Shown here: piece by piece, positions 14,675 to 22,159 of the stretch
Layout: each line of letters starts with the position of its first letter
How positions within the stretch are numbered: position 1 is the stretch's first letter
Source: Naegleria gruberi
Lineage: Eukaryota
Strand: one strand, 5' to 3'
Length of the DNA stretch: 64,000 nt
Assembly: GCA_000004985.1 (NCBI GenBank)
Contig: GG738862.1
The notes under the pieces: model-generated
Told to the model about the DNA's origin: nothing
Database searches by the model: none
The model's input: the letters and a program-made list of their open reading frames with translations, nothing else
Program-made: the position numbers and the translations under genes

Positions 14675-17600
14675 TTAAAAATCCATTTCATACAAATCAG
14701 TTAACATGTTCATGATAATTTCAAAGGATGGTCTTGCACTTGGTTCGGTGGCCCAACTCATTTTCATAATATTAACATAACCATCGACTGCGGAGAGGAG
14801 TTGATGAGCATTACGAGGATTCATTTCTCGTAGAAACTTTTCACACCATGTGGTCATTTCATTCCAATCAACGAATGGTATGATTGGTCGTTTTTCTTGA
14901 TTAGCTACAAAGAAGAGCAAGTTGAAGGCCTTGATTTTCTTTTGATCCAAACTCACATGATTGAAATAATTAATCTTTTCACATGTATCATTCCAATAAG
15001 GGGTTTCCTCAAAGAAGAGTTCCCACATTATTATTGCATATGCATAGACATCCTAAATTGAACGAATAATATTAATATTTTAGAATAGATTGCTAAAACT
15101 TACAATTTTCTTGGCATTCTCTTTGGAAAGTGCGGATGAGGTCTGTTCATTATCTTCTTCAAGAATTAATTCAGGACACCTTTACAAATATTGAAATAAT
15201 TAAATGGATATTCTAATATTATTACTTACATGTATAATAATGTTCCAATATTTGCAGTTAATGATGTTGTCAAGGTATGATTTGAGACTGTTCTAGATAA
15301 TCCAAAGTCACACACTTTTGGATTATCATTATAGTCTAGAATAATATTAGCAGGTTTTAAATCTCTGTGAATGAGATAGTTAGGTTGTAATCCATGCAAG
15401 TATTTCATCCCATTTGCAATACCAATCAGAATTTTTAGCTTTTCCTTCAAAGTCTTCTTGACAGTTCCTTTCTTCATATTCTTGATAAGTCTCTCCATAC
15501 TTCCATTCTGAGCCAACTCTACAACCATGTAGGATTGAGTTTCAGAAATACAAATTCCATAGAATGAAATAATATTCACATGTCTGAGTTGTATCAGAAC
15601 CATTACTTCCTTCTCGAACATGTCATTACTACCCTCCTTTCGAACAATGGTTTTCACAGCAACATCCATCATATTCCATTTGGCTTGATAGACAGATCCT
15701 GAGGCACCTTCTCCAATTTTCTTTTCAAATTTCAGTTCATTTGCTGGAATTATGTAATTGGCATTCTTTTCAATATCCACAGAATGAAGGGATCCATAAT
15801 CAGAGTACGAGACATCATAGGTAAGTAGTTTTTCTTCGATTTCCTTCTCTGATTTTTCTCGAACATAGACTTTCTTGATCTTTTTGTAAACTCTCCAAAT
15901 TGAAAAGGCAAGGAATGAACAAGTGCATGAGCCAATAACGATACCAATAATCATCACCAATATTGAGGCAACAACAATGACTGGTATGACCTGACTATAG
16001 GGAAAACCAAGTTGACACAGTCCATCCTTAATGATATAATCCACCTTGCAAGGAACCAAGTGAACACGTACAAATTTAGTTGTTGCAAATGGGAGTCTTA
16101 ATTTGAGAAAAAAATAATTATCTTTTTTGAGATCTATGGATTCTTTCTTGAGTGAAATGTGAAATCCAACAATATTCGAAAAATTGGTCTGGTTTACATG
16201 CACATCAAAGTTTGAGCTCGATAAAGTATCGTTGATTTCTATAATGGCACTTTCTAACAATACAGGTACATTATTATTTACACCATCAGTCATTTGAGAA
16301 AAGTAAGCAGATACTACTTGCCCCGGATAGACATAAATTGATTCATAAGTGTCATCTGATTTCAATTCCAATCTATCTAGTGAAAGATTGTATTGCCTTA
16401 TTGAGGTGGCAATATCATTTCCGTATTGATCTGCACTATTATATTGAACATCAGGCATATTTTCAATAAAAGCATACCCTTCAATGAATATTCCTCCTCC
16501 AATAAATGCAGAGTTCTCTTCCATCATAGGAGAGTATATTCCAATATTTTTTCCATTTGTGAAACAGGCACCACCTCTAAGGGCTGAATTGAGTAGAAAT
16601 GTTGATTTCGTCATAAAGCCATGCGTATTGATTAGTGATAGGGCTCCTCCACTTCCCTCAACGAAATGACCAGACTTGAAACGCTGTTCCTCCGCTGGTG
16701 ATAGAACAATTCTATTATTTACAAAACTAGTAAGAAGTAAACTAGCTGCCAAAGTAGTATTTCGAATATAGAGTGCACCACCTGCCAGTGTTGAATTATT
16801 TGAATGAAAAAGTGTCGATTCAATTCTAACTGCATAATTTCCATCCATTAATACGGCTCCTCCATTTCCATTTTTTGCTGTGTTATTGATAAATCGTGAT
16901 CCTAGAATGCATGAAGATGTAGAGACAGAGAGGAGTGAAATGCTACCTCCACTCTTGAATGAAGTATTGTTGAAAAATCTGGAGTTTTTCACAACAACTA
17001 CATCAGAAGAATCAATAAGTATAGCACCTGAATGTTTGGCCTTGTTTTGTTGAAAAAAGCAATCAACCACTTTGACCTCCTGACACAGATAGAGAGAAAC
17101 CACTGATTTTGCATTCATTGAATAATTGTCTATGAATGCAGAACGTACAAAATTGACTGTTCCCACTGAAATCCAATCTATCCATCCATACTCTCTCTTT
17201 CCAGAAAAATTACATTTGGTTATAAATATCCGAAAGACAAGGTTTGCCTTAATAGCTGAAAGTTCGGCTGGGTCGCCGGCATCTTCCTTTGGATTCTTTC
17301 TAATATGATTCCGTAACGGAACATATGTAAAATTGCAATGATTAATATCTGCCTGAACGACAGATCGCAATGTCAACTGTGAATTCTTTGAAAATTCGAA
17401 TTGGCAATACGAAAACTCGACACTTTCTGCATGTGCAACTAATATAGTAGGACCAGCACTATCTACATCCAATTTGGCTGAAAATTTGGTCCTATTAAAC
17501 AATACCCTTTCAGCTCCCATTATCATTATATCTGAATCAGTTACACAATTTTCCATTTCAATATTTCCATAATTCATCTCAATAACCGATCCAATAATTC

Positions 17601-18405
17601 TCGAATTAGAAAGTCTAAATCTATAGTCCATACTACTAAAAATTTTCACCTGATAAAAATCAACATTTGAAGCTTCCATACATGGCGTAACCATATTAAT
17701 TGCCTTCATATTATGAAACCGTATATAGGAAATAACACTTGATGAATCAGTTATAAAACCATCTGTATCATAAAAGCATCTAATGAGTCGAGGTGAAGCA
17801 TTGTCAAAACTCTTCACTAACACATTAACTCGAATAAATTGCCGAATCGATCCATCAATGGGTGGAACTCGAGCAAGACATGCCCTTCCACCACTTCTAT
17901 CCAAATCAGCTAGATCAGTCATTAGAATTATATTAAACAAAATTTCAAAGCATTCACCCTTTCTTCCTTCCCTAGTAGAAATTGAGGATAATGAAACCAT
18001 GGCAGCTGACATGTCCTTACATGCATTCTCAGTGGTTGATCCACAATCAAGAATTGATGTATAATTTTCCAAATTTACATGAATATCAAAACTAATTGGA
18101 ATATAGGAAAAACATGTTTTCACTTTTGTAAAATTTCCATTCGTTCGGTTTAATCCCAAATTAGAATTTGTTTCGTCTAATATTCTATTTAATCTTGTTG
18201 GTTTATAATTTTTAGAGTACCTAGGGGTGTTGTATTTTAGAGAAGATGATCCTTTCAATTTTTTACTTTCTCTAATGGTTTCTATTAGTTTCGTTTTATG
18301 TACAAAATTCGATTTTTCAAATTGTCGTATTTCCAACTCCGAAAAAGTAGAAAAACAATCATCATTTGCAATATTTAAACTACTAAATATTAATAAAAGT
18401 AACAT
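14675..18405 (-). CDS. Receptor-type tyrosine-kinase-like (TKL) Ser/Thr kinase: signal peptide, ectodomain of Pmp-type (GGA[ILV]/FxxN) right-handed beta-helix repeats, one TM, cytoplasmic kinase. Three exons, introns about 15180..15229 (50 nt) and 15053..15103 (51 nt).
   Basis: Kinase motifs GEGASGSVY, VAVK, HRDLKPANIIL, DFGLS, then YM|CPE and DVYAYAIIMWEL recovered only after splicing a 76-nt micro-exon (15104..15179). Ectodomain has about a dozen repeats with FxxN…GGA(I/L/V). TM is VIPVIVVASILVMIIGIVIG. The likely start is the internal Met giving MLLLLIFSSLNIAND. Confidence 0.8.
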
Positions 18406-18715
18406 TATTATCGTTATCCTAAAAAATTGTTCCGAGACTAGTTTCGTCCTTGATGTTCTTTCGTATAAGAAATAGAAAGTTGTGTTTCGGTGATGGTAAC
18501 TTTCTATTTCTTCTCGTCCAAAGAACCTCCAATTCATAGTTTCCTTTCCATAGAGTTGATGTTATTTTTTTAATGTCTGTTGTCGAAAGTGTCTGACGTC
18601 TGTTTTAGGATTTCTTCCAATAAGAAATGCTCACACTCAAAAACAAGAAACAAAGATACAAAGGAAAAAAGATATTTTCCAAAGAATCTTGAACAATCAT
18701 TTAACAAAAAAGGTG

Positions 18716-18786
18716 TAGGAAGACAGGGAATCGAACCCTGATCTTAGGAACCACAATCCCATGTTCTACCACTGAACTATCTCCCT
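18716..18786 (-). tRNA. tRNA-His (anticodon GTG)
   Basis: Reverse complement: acceptor AGGGAGA/TCTTCCT, D-arm GTTCAGTGGTAGAAC, anticodon loop TTGTGGT (GTG), 4-nt variable region, T-arm CAGGG-TTCGATT-CCCTG, discriminator A. No encoded G-1, as in eukaryotes. Confidence 0.85.
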
Positions 18787-18854
18787 TGTTAATTTGGTAA
18801 AGAAGGGTTTTACAACTATTAGACAAATAGATCTTTGTGTTTATTGGGAATTAA

Positions 18855-19957
18855 TCAAGAAATTGAACATGCTGTTTCTGATTCGAATATTTTGGTATCT
18901 TTTTTGACCACCTTAGCTAATAGAATCCTTCTTTCTGAATACTTGGAATGTCCTTCGAAAAAGTATCCCTTTTCAATTGCTCTTTCGACAACTGTTTGAA
19001 TGTTAATATTCTTCTTACAGCTTGTTTCTATAATTTCATAATTGCAACTTCCAAAATTATTCAATAGTTCGATAATTTTCTCCTTAACATGCTCTACATT
19101 TAGCGTGGAATCATATTCCAAACGGTCAATCTTGTTAATGCAAATTGTTAGTGGAATAGATTCGTCATCATGAATATAAATAATTGATCTAAAGATTTTT
19201 TGTAAAATATTGTAATCATCTTCTTGAGAATTCACTGAAAATAGTATAATATATCCTCTAGCTCCTCTCAATTTGGCTATCAATGAAAATCATTGATTCA
19301 TAAACAATTTAGATCATTAAACTTACATTCATGAAACATGTAATAATCATTTCTGAAACCATTTTCCCAAATTTCCAATTTCAATTCTGTTTCATTAAAT
19401 TGAACATTCTTATAAAATACTTCATCCAACGAATAATCATATTGTTCATTGAATTGATCATTTAAATATCGATTGATGAAGGAATGAATACCTGACCCTC
19501 CTGGTCCACTAACACAAAGTTTAAAAACATCTCTTTTCGAATAGGGATCTGAAATTGAAAATTGGTCCTTTCTCCTCCTTTCTGCCTCCTTCAAAATTCC
19601 AAAAATTCTCTTATTCGATTTCATCTTTAATTTCTCCACAATTTCGTCTTTCTTTTTCCAATGATCATGCACATTAATTGAATTCACCACTTCTCGTCCA
19701 TTCTTCACTTCCAATCGGAGATTAATAAATTGAAACAAAATAATCTTCCAATAATTTTCCAATAAATTTTGAAAATTTTCTCCAAATTGTTTAGAAATTA
19801 ATTCCAAGTTACATAAATTTTTGATATTTTTCTCTGATCGGGCGAGGAGTGGATTTGCAATGATGAGAAATTCGAGAATGTGCCGTAAAAGTTCAGGAGG
19901 AAGATCAGTTAGGTGATGTTGTGGAGGCATTTTTTTTTGTAAGTTTCGTATTTTCAA
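18855..19957 (-). CDS. F-box protein fused to a Ras/Rab-like small-GTPase domain with degenerate P-loop and switch II (pseudo-GTPase). Two exons, intron about 19277..19326 (50 nt).
   Basis: N-terminal LTDLPPELLRHILEFL is an F-box. The G-domain reads GPGGSGIHS (Lys/Ser of GxxxxGK[ST] lost) and WENGF (DxxGQ lost), with intact NKID and SCK. A phase-1 GTAAGT…GATAG splice joins …MFHE|SKLRGARGYIILF. Confidence 0.7.
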
Positions 19958-20596
19958 GTTTCGAATGTAATCAAGATGTGTGAAAATAGATGAATTATTG
20001 TTAGTATGTCAATATTTGATAAATTAATCAAGTTTATGCAAAGATAACAAGACATTTGATGTTTTAGTAAAAGGAGCTTGAATCCGAGATATGTCAAAGT
20101 AGTACAACAAGTGAAAGACGTTTTTATCTATCTCTAATTATTACAAGCAACGTTTACTTCAACTAATACCTCCAAACTATTATATTCCCCAAATATTCAA
20201 TGTAGTTCGTTTCGAATAACCCTTCGTATAATCTTTTGGATTAATAGAATTAAACAATAATACATCACCCCTTCAAATGTTTCATCAATTGGTTGATTGA
20301 TGTCATACAGACAAAGAAACAAACTCAAATCCAATTGTGTGTCATTGCCAAATGTAAATATTACAATCATTTCGACATCTTTCGAATAAAATCTTGGTTT
20401 ATTGATGGTAATAACCTACCAGAAAGTAATCAAAAGACCTCAATTGATGGCAAGTTTAGCCATAAACCAACATCTCAATACGCTAGTAGGATACCAAAAT
20501 TGCTAAAGTGCCAAAAAAATATTCGAAACATCTTCATTATCTGAAACTTGTTTATCCTCAAAGAAAAAAAACTCAAAAAAACAAATCAACAACAAC

Positions 20597-22159
20597 ATGA
20601 ACAGCAGCATTCTATCCAATGAGAGTGTCGACTCTCGAACCCACATTGAGCTGTCAACTAGTCCAACAAGTATCTCCTCACCTCGAAATGTCAACCAACA
20701 ACAATCATTCAAAGATAATTCACCACCACAATCTGCAAGTGGCACACACTTTGTAACTCAACCAGAATCTACTGTTTATTCATCGGCAACTGGAAAGAAG
20801 GATTCGAATAATCGTCAGTCAACTAAGAGTGAACAATCTTCGATGAAAACTCCAAGAAATTCATCGGCTACTGGGTTTAGATCTAGGACATTTAGATGGT
20901 ATACATGTTGTGGTGTATTGGAAATGAATTGTTTAAAGTTGACAAGTTTAGTTGCGTTGGTAGTTAGTTTAGTTTCGTTTGTTGCTTTACTCGCCATTAT
21001 TTCAGTTAATTATTCGATTGCAAGGGACTATCAACTCAAGCTTGCAAATTTGAGTACTTCTGGTACTTTTTACAGAGAATTAATGAAGCTGTCATGTAGA
21101 GCAGCTGTCACATCAAGTTACAACAAGACATTGTCATTAGAATTTGCCACAACTTACAATCAATACTTTACAACCTATTATTCTGATTTGGGTAAGCTCG
21201 TTGCTACTGTTCCACCATCCATTCTCTATTGGAATAAGATGAATATTACAATGGAAGAGCTCAAGTCAAGAAAAGCTGTCAGAATGGAACTTGCCATGAT
21301 TGCAAATGTCAAAACTGGAAATTATTCAACAGCTTTGGCAAGTTTGGAATCTGATACATATAAGGGCTATTTAACTGGTTATCAAGAAGAAGTTCAAAGC
21401 TTTATTAATTATGCAGAAGACATGAAAAGTGACAATGAAAAAATGGATTTGACAACCACAACTGTTTCACTAATTGTCATTTGCATCTCACTAGTCATTG
21501 TCATTCCAATTCTCCTAGCATTTATGATATTGAGCTTGAGAAAGGACGATACCAAAGAGAAACAACTCAGACAAGTCAAGAAATACATGATTATGGACAC
21601 AATTAATGATTCTTCATTGGTGGAAAAGTTTAAGGAATTTTGTAAACAAGAACGAAGTGAAGAGAATTTTGTGTTATTGGAAAAGATTAATGAATATAAG
21701 AAGTTGTGTGAAAAGAGTTTTGATATTCAAGTGGTGCTGTATGATACTGGTGATGCTTTGAGTATTTCAGATGTAGTTTCGGATACTACTGCTTCAAGTC
21801 AAGATGAATCGACTAAAAAGAAGAATAAGCATAAGAAGGGATTTACAGAGAAGGATTTGCAAGATATTGAAAAGAAGAAATTCGAAATTGCATTCGAAAT
21901 TTATTCAGAATTTTTAGATATTCAAGGAGATCATGCTGTGAATATTAGTAAGCAATTTGCTGATGTTGTCAAACTTAGTTTAGATTCGTTTGCTAAGGGT
22001 GAGAATGAATACATGCCAGAAACTTTATTCGAAAGTATTGAATACGAAATGTGTTTATTAATGATGGATACTCATCACAGATTTAAACAACATATGGAAG
22101 TTCAATTGAAACAAAAGAAACAAGTCCTTTCAACATTGAAAAGAAAACCAAAAAAGTAA
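20597..22159 (+). CDS. Two-TM membrane protein with cytoplasmic RGS domain: N-terminal Ser/Thr-rich tail, TM1, extracellular domain of about 170 aa, TM2, RGS.
   Basis: RGS signature …FCKQERSEENFVLLEKINEYKK… plus a helical C-terminus. Hydrophobic segments LVALVVSLVSFVALLAIISV and VSLIVICISLVIVIPILLAFMIL bracket a Cys-poor extracellular region. Confidence 0.7.
   Translation: MNSSILSNESVDSRTHIELSTSPTSISSPRNVNQQQSFKDNSPPQSASGTHFVTQPESTVYSSATGKKDSNNRQSTKSEQSSMKTPRNSSATGFRSRTFRWYTCCGVLEMNCLKLTSLVALVVSLVSFVALLAIISVNYSIARDYQLKLANLSTSGTFYRELMKLSCRAAVTSSYNKTLSLEFATTYNQYFTTYYSDLGKLVATVPPSILYWNKMNITMEELKSRKAVRMELAMIANVKTGNYSTALASLESDTYKGYLTGYQEEVQSFINYAEDMKSDNEKMDLTTTTVSLIVICISLVIVIPILLAFMILSLRKDDTKEKQLRQVKKYMIMDTINDSSLVEKFKEFCKQERSEENFVLLEKINEYKKLCEKSFDIQVVLYDTGDALSISDVVSDTTASSQDESTKKKNKHKKGFTEKDLQDIEKKKFEIAFEIYSEFLDIQGDHAVNISKQFADVVKLSLDSFAKGENEYMPETLFESIEYEMCLLMMDTHHRFKQHMEVQLKQKKQVLSTLKRKPKK

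What the first reader, a model, noticed from the sequence alone, without database searches (positions are those of the whole stretch)
18855..19957. F-box fused to a nucleotide-binding-defective Ras-like domain (pseudo-GTPase)
A canonical F-box (LTDLPPELLRHILEFL) is followed by a small-GTPase fold. The P-loop Lys and Ser are replaced (GPGGSGIHS). Switch II is DxxGQ to WENGF. The guanine-specificity motifs NKID and SCK are intact. This suggests a GTPase-derived substrate-recognition module for an SCF ubiquitin ligase rather than a molecular switch. The GTPase half is recognisable only after joining two ORFs across a 50-nt intron.
Basis: partly seen in the sequence, partly recalled or inferred. 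Interest (0 to 1): 0.5.

Follow-up and report, generated by a model that had tools for sequence, protein, structure and literature searches.

The report
Ras-derived pseudo-GTPase with F-box-like head
This is an already annotated Naegleria gruberi gene for a membrane-anchorable Ras-like protein whose nucleotide-binding loop has been disabled yet is kept by selection, fused to a weak F-box-like head; it is an interesting variant of the GTPase/ubiquitin-ligase fusions already reported in Naegleria, not a new kind of system.

Summary
The sequence features are real. The minus-strand gene has exon 1 at 19930-19327, a 50-nt GT-AG intron at 19326-19277 and exon 2 at 19276-18855. It encodes 341 aa identical to RefSeq XP_002678448.1, "ras family small GTPase (RAP-1)", of Naegleria gruberi NEG-M.

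The Ras domain is solid (Pfam Ras 62 bits, E 5e-17). Its P-loop is GPGGSGIH (Lys16->Ile, Ser17->His).

The "canonical" F-box is only F-box-like. It falls below Pfam thresholds, reaches 92% probability in a profile-profile comparison, and gets no support from fold searches.

- a C-terminal CaaX box (CSIS);
- a heterolobosean family with the same architecture whose members mostly keep intact G motifs;
- two N. gruberi paralogues with the identical dead P-loop, the same intron position, and dN/dS of about 0.2.

NKxD is not conserved in those paralogues, so nucleotide binding is probably lost.

F-box/GTPase fusions in Naegleria were already reported by Herman et al. 2021, where this gene is listed as plain "Ras". 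The most likely role is a farnesylated, switch-dead Ras mimic acting as an SCF adaptor. That function is inferred, not shown.

The parts
18855..19930 (-). Whole gene (CDS with intron): Naegleria gruberi XP_002678448.1 / EFC45704.1 / D2VC82, 341 aa
   Evidence: Spliced translation. An exact-sequence look-up returns the RefSeq protein on a 502-kb N. gruberi NEG-M scaffold.
19327..19930 (-). Exon 1 (aa 1-201 plus the first base of codon 202): F-box-like head, linker, and the first half of the G domain (beta1 to switch II)
   Evidence: Exon 1 alone was called as a protein in a metagenome (P0001) and in a partial RefSeq entry, XP_002668897.1.
19277..19326 (-). 50-nt intron, GTAAGT...TAG, phase 1, inside switch II/helix alpha2
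   Evidence: Unspliced read-through hits stop codons. The same position and phase occur in paralogues L001 (68 nt) and L002 (40 nt). There are 3/50 substitutions against strain L003, compared with 8/1026 in the exons.
18855..19276 (-). Exon 2 (aa 202-341 plus stop): second half of the G domain, C-terminal helix, CaaX
19727..19912 (-). F-box-like region (aa 7-68): LPPELLRHILEFL helix, a 12-aa insertion, then NLCNLELISKQF and YWKIIL helices
   Evidence: Pfam F-box scores 15-17.5 bits and F-box-like 13-17 bits, both below cutoff. 13 of 21 family N-termini hit PF12937 at E<=0.1, and one passes the cutoff. hhalign against canonical F-boxes gives 92% probability. The AF2 model shows helices 12-24, 33-49 and 51-68 with pLDDT 82-92.
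19529..19726 (-). Family-specific linker (aa 69-134): beta-hairpin 71-84 and a long helix carrying the conserved K(K/R)xFxIL motif
   Evidence: Alignment A2. AF2 secondary structure. No Pfam family matched.
18972..19528 (-). Ras-superfamily G domain (aa 135-303; genomic span includes the intron)
   Evidence: Pfam Ras 62.3 bits, E 5e-17. PDB Rab3C/Rap1 at E about 1e-12. The exon-1 half of the AF2 model superposes on Rab/Ras/Rho structures.
19481..19507 (-). Degenerate P-loop GPGGSGIHS (Ras K16->I, S17->H)
   Evidence: Alignment to Rab3C, Rap1 and HRAS without indels. Invariant in three N. gruberi paralogues.
19421..19441 (-). Switch I YDYSLDE (Ras YDPTIED; T35->S)
19352..19369 (-). Switch II W-ENGFR (Ras L-DTAGQ; D57->E, G60->F, Q61->R)
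   Evidence: GFR is invariant in the three paralogues.
19125..19136 (-). G4 NKID, intact here but SQID / TQID in the paralogues
19014..19022 (-). G5 SCK (Ras SAK); SSK in the paralogues
18858..18869 (-). C-terminal CaaX box CSIS (farnesylation-type X residue), preceded by VVKKDTK
   Evidence: CLLS in the paralogue. CLLQ, CLFM, CMVM, CGLM, CFVQ, CLIA and CYLQ in family members. FTase preference for X = S/M/Q/A comes from established knowledge.

Best explanation
The gene is Naegleria gruberi XP_002678448.1. It is one of three N. gruberi paralogues forming a derived, switch-dead branch of a heterolobosean family of Ras-type GTPases. Members of that family carry an N-terminal F-box-like helical head, a conserved linker and a C-terminal CaaX box.

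Shown:
- the gene structure;
- the Ras fold;
- replacement of the residues that hold the beta/gamma-phosphate and Mg2+ (K16I, S17H, T35S) and of the switch II glycine and catalytic glutamine (G60F, Q61R);
- long-term purifying selection on exactly this degenerate state.

Inferred:
- The domain no longer cycles between GTP and GDP states and most likely binds no nucleotide. It is a pseudo-GTPase held in one conformation.
- The CaaX cysteine is farnesylated, which places the protein on membranes.
- The F-box-like head binds Skp1. The Ras-derived domain would then serve as a constitutive, membrane-anchored substrate or partner-recognition module of an SCF-type ligase, plausibly capturing proteins that normally recognise Ras (GEFs, GAPs or effectors).

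Relatives with intact G motifs would do the same in a GTP-dependent way.
For: - Identity and gene model: one search gives an exact match to the RefSeq protein. Searches support the intron.
- Ras fold.
- Dead motifs and their conservation.
- Selection: dN/dS is 0.08 between strains and about 0.2 between paralogues, the same in the head and in the G domain.
- Derived state: the three degenerate paralogues are monophyletic (100% bootstrap). They are sister (78%) to N. fowleri and N. lovaniensis proteins that keep GxxGVGKT but have already lost G60. The group is nested among members with all motifs intact.
- NKxD is not conserved among the paralogues, which argues that guanine binding is no longer selected.
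- F-box-like head: the LPxE[LI]xxI(F/L)xFL motif is conserved across the family. 13 of 21 members hit PF12937 and one passes the cutoff. hhalign gives 92%. The best, though non-significant, PDB sequence hit of the family profile is the FBXL5 F-box.
- CaaX is conserved across the family.
- Precedent: Herman et al. 2021 (PMC8296547, Suppl. Material 4) report F-box fused to Rab, Rho, Ran and Galpha domains in Naegleria and propose GTPase-dependent ubiquitination. Prenylated CaaX F-box proteins FBXL2 and FBXO10 act as membrane SCF receptors (PMC9988375 and PMC11042265, as listed).
Against: - The F-box assignment is weak for this protein. It is below both Pfam cutoffs.
- The family profile scores only E=1.5 against PDB F-box sequences.
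- A 12-residue insertion sits between helices 1 and 2.
- Skp1 binding, prenylation, nucleotide binding and substrates are all untested.
- NKID and SCK are intact in this particular copy, so residual guanine-nucleotide binding cannot be excluded.
Confidence: 0.45

Rival explanations
1. The protein is a scaffold or decoy pseudo-GTPase with no ubiquitin-ligase link. In this view the N-terminal helices are a family-specific extension that only superficially resembles an F-box, for example an intramolecular lid, a dimerisation module or a targeting module. The farnesylated dead-Ras domain would act at the membrane by sequestering or organising Ras regulators or effectors.
Against: The LPxE[LI]xxIxxFL motif is the hallmark of F-box helix 1 and is conserved family-wide. 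hhalign gives 92%. 13 of 21 members give weak F-box-like hits and one passes the Pfam cutoff. F-box/GTPase fusions are frequent in Naegleria.
Confidence: 0.3
2. The protein is an atypical but still nucleotide-binding GTPase. The altered P-loop (Ile-His-Ser), together with the intact NKID and SCK, would still hold GTP or GDP in a non-canonical, possibly Mg-independent way. The protein would then be a constitutively loaded, non-hydrolysing Ras, comparable to Rnd or RhoH.
For: NKID, SCK and D119 are retained in this copy. D119 (xxID) is retained in all three paralogues. A metagenomic relative, P0004, has GMSGSGVKS with a Lys-Ser pair shifted by one position and no length change. This hints at a re-registered P-loop.
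Against: The P-loop Lys is essential for phosphate binding in P-loop NTPases (established knowledge). S17, T35, G60 and Q61 are all replaced as well. N116 and K117 are lost in both paralogues.
Confidence: 0.12
3. The F-box-like head mainly makes the protein itself short-lived, through auto-ubiquitination or regulated turnover, rather than recruiting other substrates. This was suggested for the trypanosome FYVE/F-box/GTPase protein TbFRP.
For: The TbFRP paper links its F-box to rapid proteolysis of the protein (PMC3593210). F-box proteins are commonly auto-ubiquitinated (established knowledge).
Against: There are no data for this protein. TbFRP has a FYVE domain and a Rab18/Ypt6-like G domain, and no Naegleria orthologue was found by its authors.
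Confidence: 0.1
4. The gene is a decaying paralogue in a birth-and-death gene family, with G-motif loss reflecting relaxed constraint.
For: Naegleria Ras-superfamily expansions contain putative pseudogenes and show birth-and-death dynamics (Herman et al.).
Against: The ORF is intact and its splice sites are conserved. Between strains there are 6 synonymous and 2 conservative changes. dN/dS is about 0.2 across paralogues with dS>1. GPGGSGIH is identical in all three copies. The gene is not flagged as a pseudogene in Table S8.
Confidence: 0.03

Closest known systems
Naegleria F-box/GTPase fusion proteins and N-terminally extended divergent small GTPases (Herman et al. 2021, BMC Biol, PMC8296547, Suppl. 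Material 4 and Table S8)
   Same: Same organism and same design: an N-terminal extension, recognisable as an F-box in some members, sits upstream of a Ras-superfamily domain. One subgroup carries a CaaX box. The authors propose GTPase-dependent ubiquitination. This very gene, XP_002678448.1, and both paralogues are in their Table S8.
   Different: They report F-box with Rab, Rho, Ran and Galpha domains, not with Ras. This gene is listed as plain 'Ras' with no additional domain. Their corrected model of the paralogue XP_002680544.1 starts at an internal Met and so lacks the head. The loss of the P-loop Lys/Ser is not mentioned in the text I read.
TbFRP (FYVE / F-box / Ras-like GTPase of Euglenozoa; PMC3593210)
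   Same: An F-box placed N-terminal to a small GTPase domain, in a lineage (Discoba) related to Heterolobosea. Membrane targeting is added by a separate module.
   Different: TbFRP uses a FYVE domain rather than a CaaX box for membrane binding. Its G domain is Rab18/Ypt6-like. Its authors found no Naegleria orthologue. Pfam finds no FYVE domain in the protein studied here. Homology between the two was not tested here.
Rab40 (GTPase + SOCS box, CRL5) and RhoBTB (atypical Rho domain + BTB, CRL3)
   Same: A small-GTPase fold built into a cullin-RING ligase substrate receptor. The RhoBTB G domain is atypical. (Own knowledge; the reviews PMC4812663 and PMC13236570 were listed but not read. RhoBTB is present in Naegleria.)
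   Different: These use different cullin-adaptor motifs (SOCS box, BTB) placed C-terminal to the G domain. Rab40 keeps a working nucleotide pocket.
PseudoGTPases (for example the p190RhoGAP pG1/pG2 domains, PMC5593906; CENP-M)
   Same: The GTPase fold is retained while the G1 and G3 residues are lost, and the domain is conserved as a protein-interaction module (title and abstract; otherwise own knowledge).
   Different: The known examples are not fused to an F-box and are not prenylated Ras-family proteins. In this copy G4 and G5 are still intact, so the degeneration is partial and evolutionarily recent. Relatives show intermediate states.
Prenylated F-box proteins FBXL2 / FBXO10 (SCF receptors with a CaaX box)
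   Same: The same layout: an F-box at the N-terminus, a partner-binding domain in the middle, and a CaaX box that puts the SCF receptor on membranes (PMC9988375 and PMC11042265, abstracts).
   Different: Their substrate-binding domains are LRR or other repeats, not a GTPase fold. They are geranylgeranylated (X = L), whereas CSIS predicts farnesylation.

Membership tests
Ras-superfamily small GTPase domain (Pfam PF00071) | Profile match above the curated threshold over the whole domain | tested here: met
   62.3 bits against a cutoff of 21.6, E 5.3e-17, profile positions 1-158 of 162. PDB Rab3C and Rap1 at E about 1e-12.
Ras-superfamily small GTPase domain (Pfam PF00071) | G1 P-loop GxxxxGK[S/T] | tested here: not met
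   GPGGSGIH: Lys->Ile and Ser/Thr->His, with no indel relative to HRAS, Rap1 or Rab3. No alternative P-loop is encoded nearby.
Ras-superfamily small GTPase domain (Pfam PF00071) | G2 switch I Thr (Ras T35) | tested here: not met
   YDYSLDE: Thr->Ser. The paralogue L001 has Pro-Ile.
Ras-superfamily small GTPase domain (Pfam PF00071) | G3 DxxG(Q) | tested here: not met
   ENGFR: D57E, G60F, Q61R.
Ras-superfamily small GTPase domain (Pfam PF00071) | G4 [N/T]KxD and G5 SAK | tested here: met
   NKID and SCK in this gene. The paralogues have SQID/SSK and TQID/SSK.
Ras-superfamily small GTPase domain (Pfam PF00071) | Guanine-nucleotide binding and hydrolysis | not testable with these tools
   Needs recombinant protein.
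Ras family proper (Ras/Rap/Ral) | Ras-type effector loop YDPTIEDSY and C-terminal CaaX | tested here: inconclusive
   Family relatives carry YDPTIEDSYRK and CaaX. This protein has YDYSLDEVFYK plus CSIS. The best PDB hits mix Rab3 and Rap1. NCBI names the paralogues variously 'ras (RAP-1)' and 'rab'.
F-box domain (PF00646 / PF12937) | Profile match above the curated threshold | tested here: not met
   F-box scores 15.0-17.5 bits (cutoff 20.5) and F-box-like 13.4-16.7 bits (cutoff 24.3). Only helix 1 aligns to PF00646.
F-box domain (PF00646 / PF12937) | Helix-1 LPxE[LI]xxI[LF]xxL motif followed by two helices ending in a conserved Trp | tested here: met
   The motif reads DLPPELLRHILEFL ... NLCNLELISKQF ... 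YWKIIL. W61 is invariant and L65 nearly invariant in 21 family members. The AF2 model has helices 12-24, 33-49 and 51-68. There is a 12-aa insertion between helices 1 and 2.
F-box domain (PF00646 / PF12937) | Homology by profile-profile comparison or transitivity | tested here: met
13 of 21 family members hit PF12937 at E<=0.1. Willaertia P0045 passes the cutoff at 26.2 bits.
F-box domain (PF00646 / PF12937) | Structural similarity to solved F-box domains | tested here: inconclusive
F-box domain (PF00646 / PF12937) | Binds Skp1 and assembles with Cul1/Rbx1 | not testable with these tools
   No multimer prediction or experiment was available. Presence of Skp1 and Cul1 in N. gruberi was not checked here.
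PseudoGTPase | GTPase fold retained, essential G-motif residues lost | tested here: met
PseudoGTPase | The degenerate state is maintained by selection (not a pseudogene) | tested here: met
   dN/dS is 0.08-0.24. GPGGSGIH and GFR are invariant in three paralogues with dS>1.
PseudoGTPase | No nucleotide binding, or no hydrolysis | not testable with these tools
   Inferred from K16I, S17H, G60F and Q61R. NKID is retained in this copy.
Naegleria F-box/GTPase fusions (Herman et al. 2021) | Naegleria gene with an N-terminal F-box(-like) extension upstream of a Ras-superfamily domain | tested here: met
Naegleria F-box/GTPase fusions (Herman et al. 2021) | Listed by the authors as F-box-containing | tested here: not met
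   XP_002678448.1, XP_002668642.1, XP_002680544.1 and XP_002674532.1 appear as 'Ras' with no additional domain.
TbFRP family (Euglenozoa) | N-terminal FYVE domain | tested here: not met
   No FYVE hit in Pfam at E<=1. The TbFRP authors found no Naegleria orthologue.

The most novel reading that the evidence does not exclude
A nucleotide-free Ras mimic serves as the substrate receptor of a farnesylated SCF ligase. The dead Ras domain, locked in an empty-pocket conformation, would constitutively trap Ras-binding proteins such as Cdc25-type GEFs at the membrane and hand them to Skp1/Cul1 for ubiquitination. This would be a third, independent way of wiring a small-GTPase fold into cullin ligases, after Rab40/CRL5 and RhoBTB/CRL3. 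It would be the first using an F-box together with a pseudo-GTPase. The family also offers a natural series from switchable members to switch-dead ones.
Probability: 0.2. Interest if true: 0.6.

Novelty: new variant of a known kind. Interest (0 to 1): 0.35.

Why it matters
The result adds a Ras-family branch to the F-box/GTPase fusions already noted in Naegleria. It also shows that part of this branch has become a conserved pseudo-GTPase.

The family contains a graded series:
- members with all G motifs intact;
- N. fowleri and N. lovaniensis proteins with G60 lost;
- three N. gruberi paralogues with the P-loop Lys/Ser lost as well, two of which have also lost NKxD.

This makes it a compact natural system for studying how a molecular switch turns into a fixed binding module. 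If the F-box-like head binds Skp1, it would also show how GTPase signalling can be coupled to ubiquitination at membranes. The practical impact is modest. The gene is already annotated, the organism is hard to manipulate, and no function is known.

Tried and rejected
I therefore used exon 1 plus homologues. No full-length model exists, and the packing of the head against the G domain is unknown.
- Word-indexed homologue search: it returned only three metagenomic fragments. With the family profile it again returned only three. It missed the RefSeq entries, and the organism was recovered only through an exact-sequence look-up.
- JGI metagenome scan for relatives: nothing found.
- Family N-terminal profile against PDB sequences: the FBXL5 F-box came top, but at E=1.5, which is not significant.
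- Alternative splicing that might restore a P-loop: none possible.
- Pseudogene hypothesis: rejected on dN/dS and motif invariance.
- Segmental duplication of the RGS / F-box-Ras / TM-kinase neighbourhood between this locus and the L001 paralogue: the neighbours are of the same kinds, but they are only 25-29% identical and differently oriented. This is not supported.
- Large multi-GTPase hits from the profile search (P0005, P0015, P0018 and others): these are tandem Rab/Ras proteins, not family members and not TbFRP.
- Literature searches for the accession numbers, for the metagenome project PRJEB11402, and for 'F-box + pseudoGTPase': no papers found.
Full report
**What is in the sequence.**
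The finding lies on the minus strand of an AT-rich (about 33% GC), gene-dense eukaryotic window. The first ATG of the upstream ORF is at 19930; position 19957 is only the mechanical TTG start. Exon 1 runs 19930-19327. A 50-nt GTAAGT...TAG intron in phase 1 occupies 19326-19277. Exon 2 runs 19276-18855. Read-through of the intron hits stop codons, and splicing gives a 341-aa protein. An exact-sequence look-up shows this protein is identical to RefSeq XP_002678448.1 / EFC45704.1 / UniProt D2VC82, "ras family small GTPase (RAP-1)", of Naegleria gruberi NEG-M, on a 502-kb scaffold. The neighbouring RGS-domain ORF (20597-22159) is XP_002678354.1.

**Independent support for the gene model.**
A metagenome contig (L003) is 97.2% identical to the window over 2 kb. 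Exons differ at 8 of 1026 sites (6 synonymous, 2 conservative). The intron differs at 3 of 50 sites, and the flanks at 4-10%. Two paralogous loci (L001, L002) have an intron at exactly the same codon position and phase, with lengths of 68 and 40 nt.

**The GTPase half.**
Pfam Ras matches aa 137-303 at 62.3 bits (cutoff 21.6, E 5e-17), covering 158 of 162 profile positions. The best solved relatives are Rab3C, Rap1 and Ral at E about 1e-12 to 1e-11. The AF2 model of the exon-1 product (pLDDT 78) superposes its beta1-alpha1-beta2-beta3 part on Rab, Ras and Rho structures.

Indel-free alignments give the following motif states:

| Motif | Canonical | This protein | Change |
|---|---|---|---|
| G1 (P-loop) | GxxxxGKS | GPGGSGIH | K16I, S17H |
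| G2 (switch I) | YDPTIED | YDYSLDE | T35S |
| G3 (switch II) | DTAGQ | ENGFR | D57E, G60F, Q61R |
| G4 | NKxD | NKID | intact |
| G5 | SAK | SCK | A146C |

No canonical P-loop is encoded in any frame of 18500-20600, and no in-frame GT-AG alternative touches the P-loop.

**The F-box half.**
The string LTDLPPELLRHILEFL is a good F-box helix 1. However, Pfam F-box (15-17.5 bits against 20.5) and F-box-like (13-17 bits against 24.3) are both below threshold.

Using relatives found by an exhaustive profile search, I built a 21-member alignment of the N-terminal regions. LPxE[LI]xxI(F/L)xFL, a second helix ending in xxI(C/S)Kxx, and an invariant Trp (YWK) are conserved. The tests gave these results:
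- 13 of 21 members hit PF12937 at E<=0.1, and one (Willaertia P0045) passes the cutoff at 26.2 bits.
- The family profile's top PDB sequence hit is the FBXL5 F-box, but at E=1.5.

My reading is that this is a divergent F-box-like domain. It is probable but not proven, and it is certainly not 'canonical'.

1. The protein ends in CSIS, a CaaX box. The paralogue ends in CLLS, and family members end in CLLQ, CLFM, CMVM, CGLM, CFVQ, CLIA or CYLQ. By established knowledge, X = S, M, Q or A predicts farnesylation.
2. The gene belongs to a heterolobosean family with the architecture F-box-like head, conserved linker (K(K/R)xFxIL helix), Ras domain and CaaX. Named members come from N. gruberi, N. fowleri, N. 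lovaniensis and Willaertia magna, plus metagenomes. Most members have fully intact G motifs, including the Ras-type effector loop YDPTIEDSYRK.
3. N. gruberi has three paralogues with the identical dead P-loop. These are this gene, XP_002680544.1 (98.7% identical over 228 aa to my L001 reconstruction, with the same splice junction) and XP_002668642.1.

**Evolution of the degenerate state.**
In an NJ tree of 180 G-domain columns the three paralogues are monophyletic (100% bootstrap). They are sister (78%) to N. fowleri XP_044567842 and N. lovaniensis XP_044550336. Those two keep GxxGVGKT but have already lost G60 (DDTS, DTAE). The whole group is nested among intact-motif members.

Between paralogues dS exceeds 1 and dN/dS is about 0.2, alike in the head (0.17) and the G domain (0.21). 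Between strains dN/dS is 0.08. GPGGSGIH and GFR are invariant. NKxD, by contrast, is SQID and TQID in the other two copies, and SAK is SSK.

The degenerate state is therefore derived, old and selected. Guanine-base recognition is evidently not what selection is preserving. This makes a nucleotide-free pseudo-GTPase the most likely state, although this particular copy, with NKID and SCK, could retain weak binding.

**Mechanism (inferred).**
The most economical reading is a farnesylated, membrane-anchored protein whose Ras-derived domain is frozen in one conformation and used as a binding module. The F-box-like head would dock it to Skp1/Cul1. Intact-motif relatives would recruit partners in a GTP-dependent way, which is the 'GTPase-dependent ubiquitination' suggested by Herman et al.. 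The dead branch would recruit them constitutively. Because nucleotide-free Ras binds exchange factors tightly (established knowledge), a GEF-trap function is an attractive but untested possibility.

The rival explanations are:
- a scaffold or decoy with a non-F-box head;
- an atypical protein that still binds nucleotide;
- an F-box used for self-turnover, as proposed for TbFRP;
- gene decay, which is essentially excluded.

**Comparison with what is known.**
Herman et al. 2021 (PMC8296547, Suppl. Material 4 and Table S8) re-annotated more than 350 N. gruberi Ras-superfamily genes. They report the F-box as the most frequent extra domain, found with Rab, Rho, Ran and Galpha domains. They also describe divergent Rab-like subgroups with N-terminal extensions and, in one of them, a CaaX box.

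This gene and its paralogues are in their table as plain 'Ras' with no extra domain and no pseudogene flag. Their corrected XP_002680544.1 model starts at an internal Met and omits the head.

TbFRP of Euglenozoa (FYVE / F-box / Rab-like GTPase) is the other published F-box/GTPase protein. It differs in having a FYVE domain, in its G-domain type, and in having no Naegleria orthologue.

Functional analogues are Rab40 (SOCS box, CRL5), RhoBTB (BTB, CRL3), the prenylated F-box proteins FBXL2 and FBXO10, and the pseudoGTPase class such as p190RhoGAP (and own knowledge).

**Verdict.**
The F-box is weaker than claimed, and the SCF role is inference. The gene is already annotated and the general architecture is already published for Naegleria.

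What is new is modest:
- a cryptic F-box-like head on a Ras-family subgroup;
- a conserved CaaX box;
- a selected, stepwise loss of the nucleotide pocket in three N. gruberi paralogues.

I score this as a new variant of a known kind, with interest 0.35.

Noticed in passing
window 18715-18786 (-): A tRNA-His (GTG) gene lies only 69 nt downstream of the stop codon of the F-box-like/Ras gene. It is 100% identical in the 97%-identical strain contig L003, whereas the surrounding 3' flank differs at about 4%.
   Followed up: partly
window 30162-30254 (+): ARAGORN reports a 93-nt tRNA-like gene with an undetermined anticodon ('aa'). It may be an intron-containing or aberrant tRNA.
   Followed up: no
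window 15226-18537 (-): A 1103-aa ORF encodes a receptor-like protein with a large extracellular region, one TM segment and a kinase domain. The kinase domain is cut at Pfam position 164 of 263 at the ORF end, so a further exon probably follows downstream.
   Followed up: no
window 20597-22159 (+); L001 1-657 and 2316-4286: This gene and its paralogue locus L001 are both flanked by an RGS-domain gene upstream and a TM receptor kinase downstream. The neighbours are only 25-29% identical and differently oriented, so a segmental duplication is not supported.
   Followed up: yes
window 22187-24835 (-): An 882-aa protein made of 17 DUF4116 repeats (E 3.6e-200). It has no known function.
   Followed up: no
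window 26921-30106 (+): A 1061-aa protein with NHL / teneurin-type NHL repeats (E about 1e-84).
   Followed up: no
P0004, P0007, P0012 (metagenome proteins, no window coordinates): Metagenomic relatives of the family. Only P0004 extends into the G domain. Its P-loop is GMSGSGVKS, in which a Lys-Ser pair sits one position later than canonical without any length change, and its G3 is RNGSAY. P0007 and P0012 match only in the N-terminal head and have no recognisable P-loop. P0004 may be a re-registered or an independently degenerated P-loop.
   Followed up: partly
RefSeq XP_002680544.1 and XP_002668642.1 (paralogues; L001, L002): Annotation problems in the paralogues. The published corrected model of XP_002680544.1 starts at an internal Met and lacks the F-box-like head that is present in the orthologous contig L001. 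XP_002668642.1 ends in ...NRRLLWRGL without a CaaX box, probably a mis-modelled 3' end. NCBI names the three paralogues inconsistently as 'ras (RAP-1)', 'rab' and 'small GTPase, partial'.
   Followed up: partly
metagenome run ERR1078381 / PRJEB11402 (loci L001-L003): A public metagenome contains contigs 97-99% identical to N. gruberi NEG-M for all three paralogues. This implies a close N. gruberi-like strain in that sample. No paper mentioning the project was found.
   Followed up: partly
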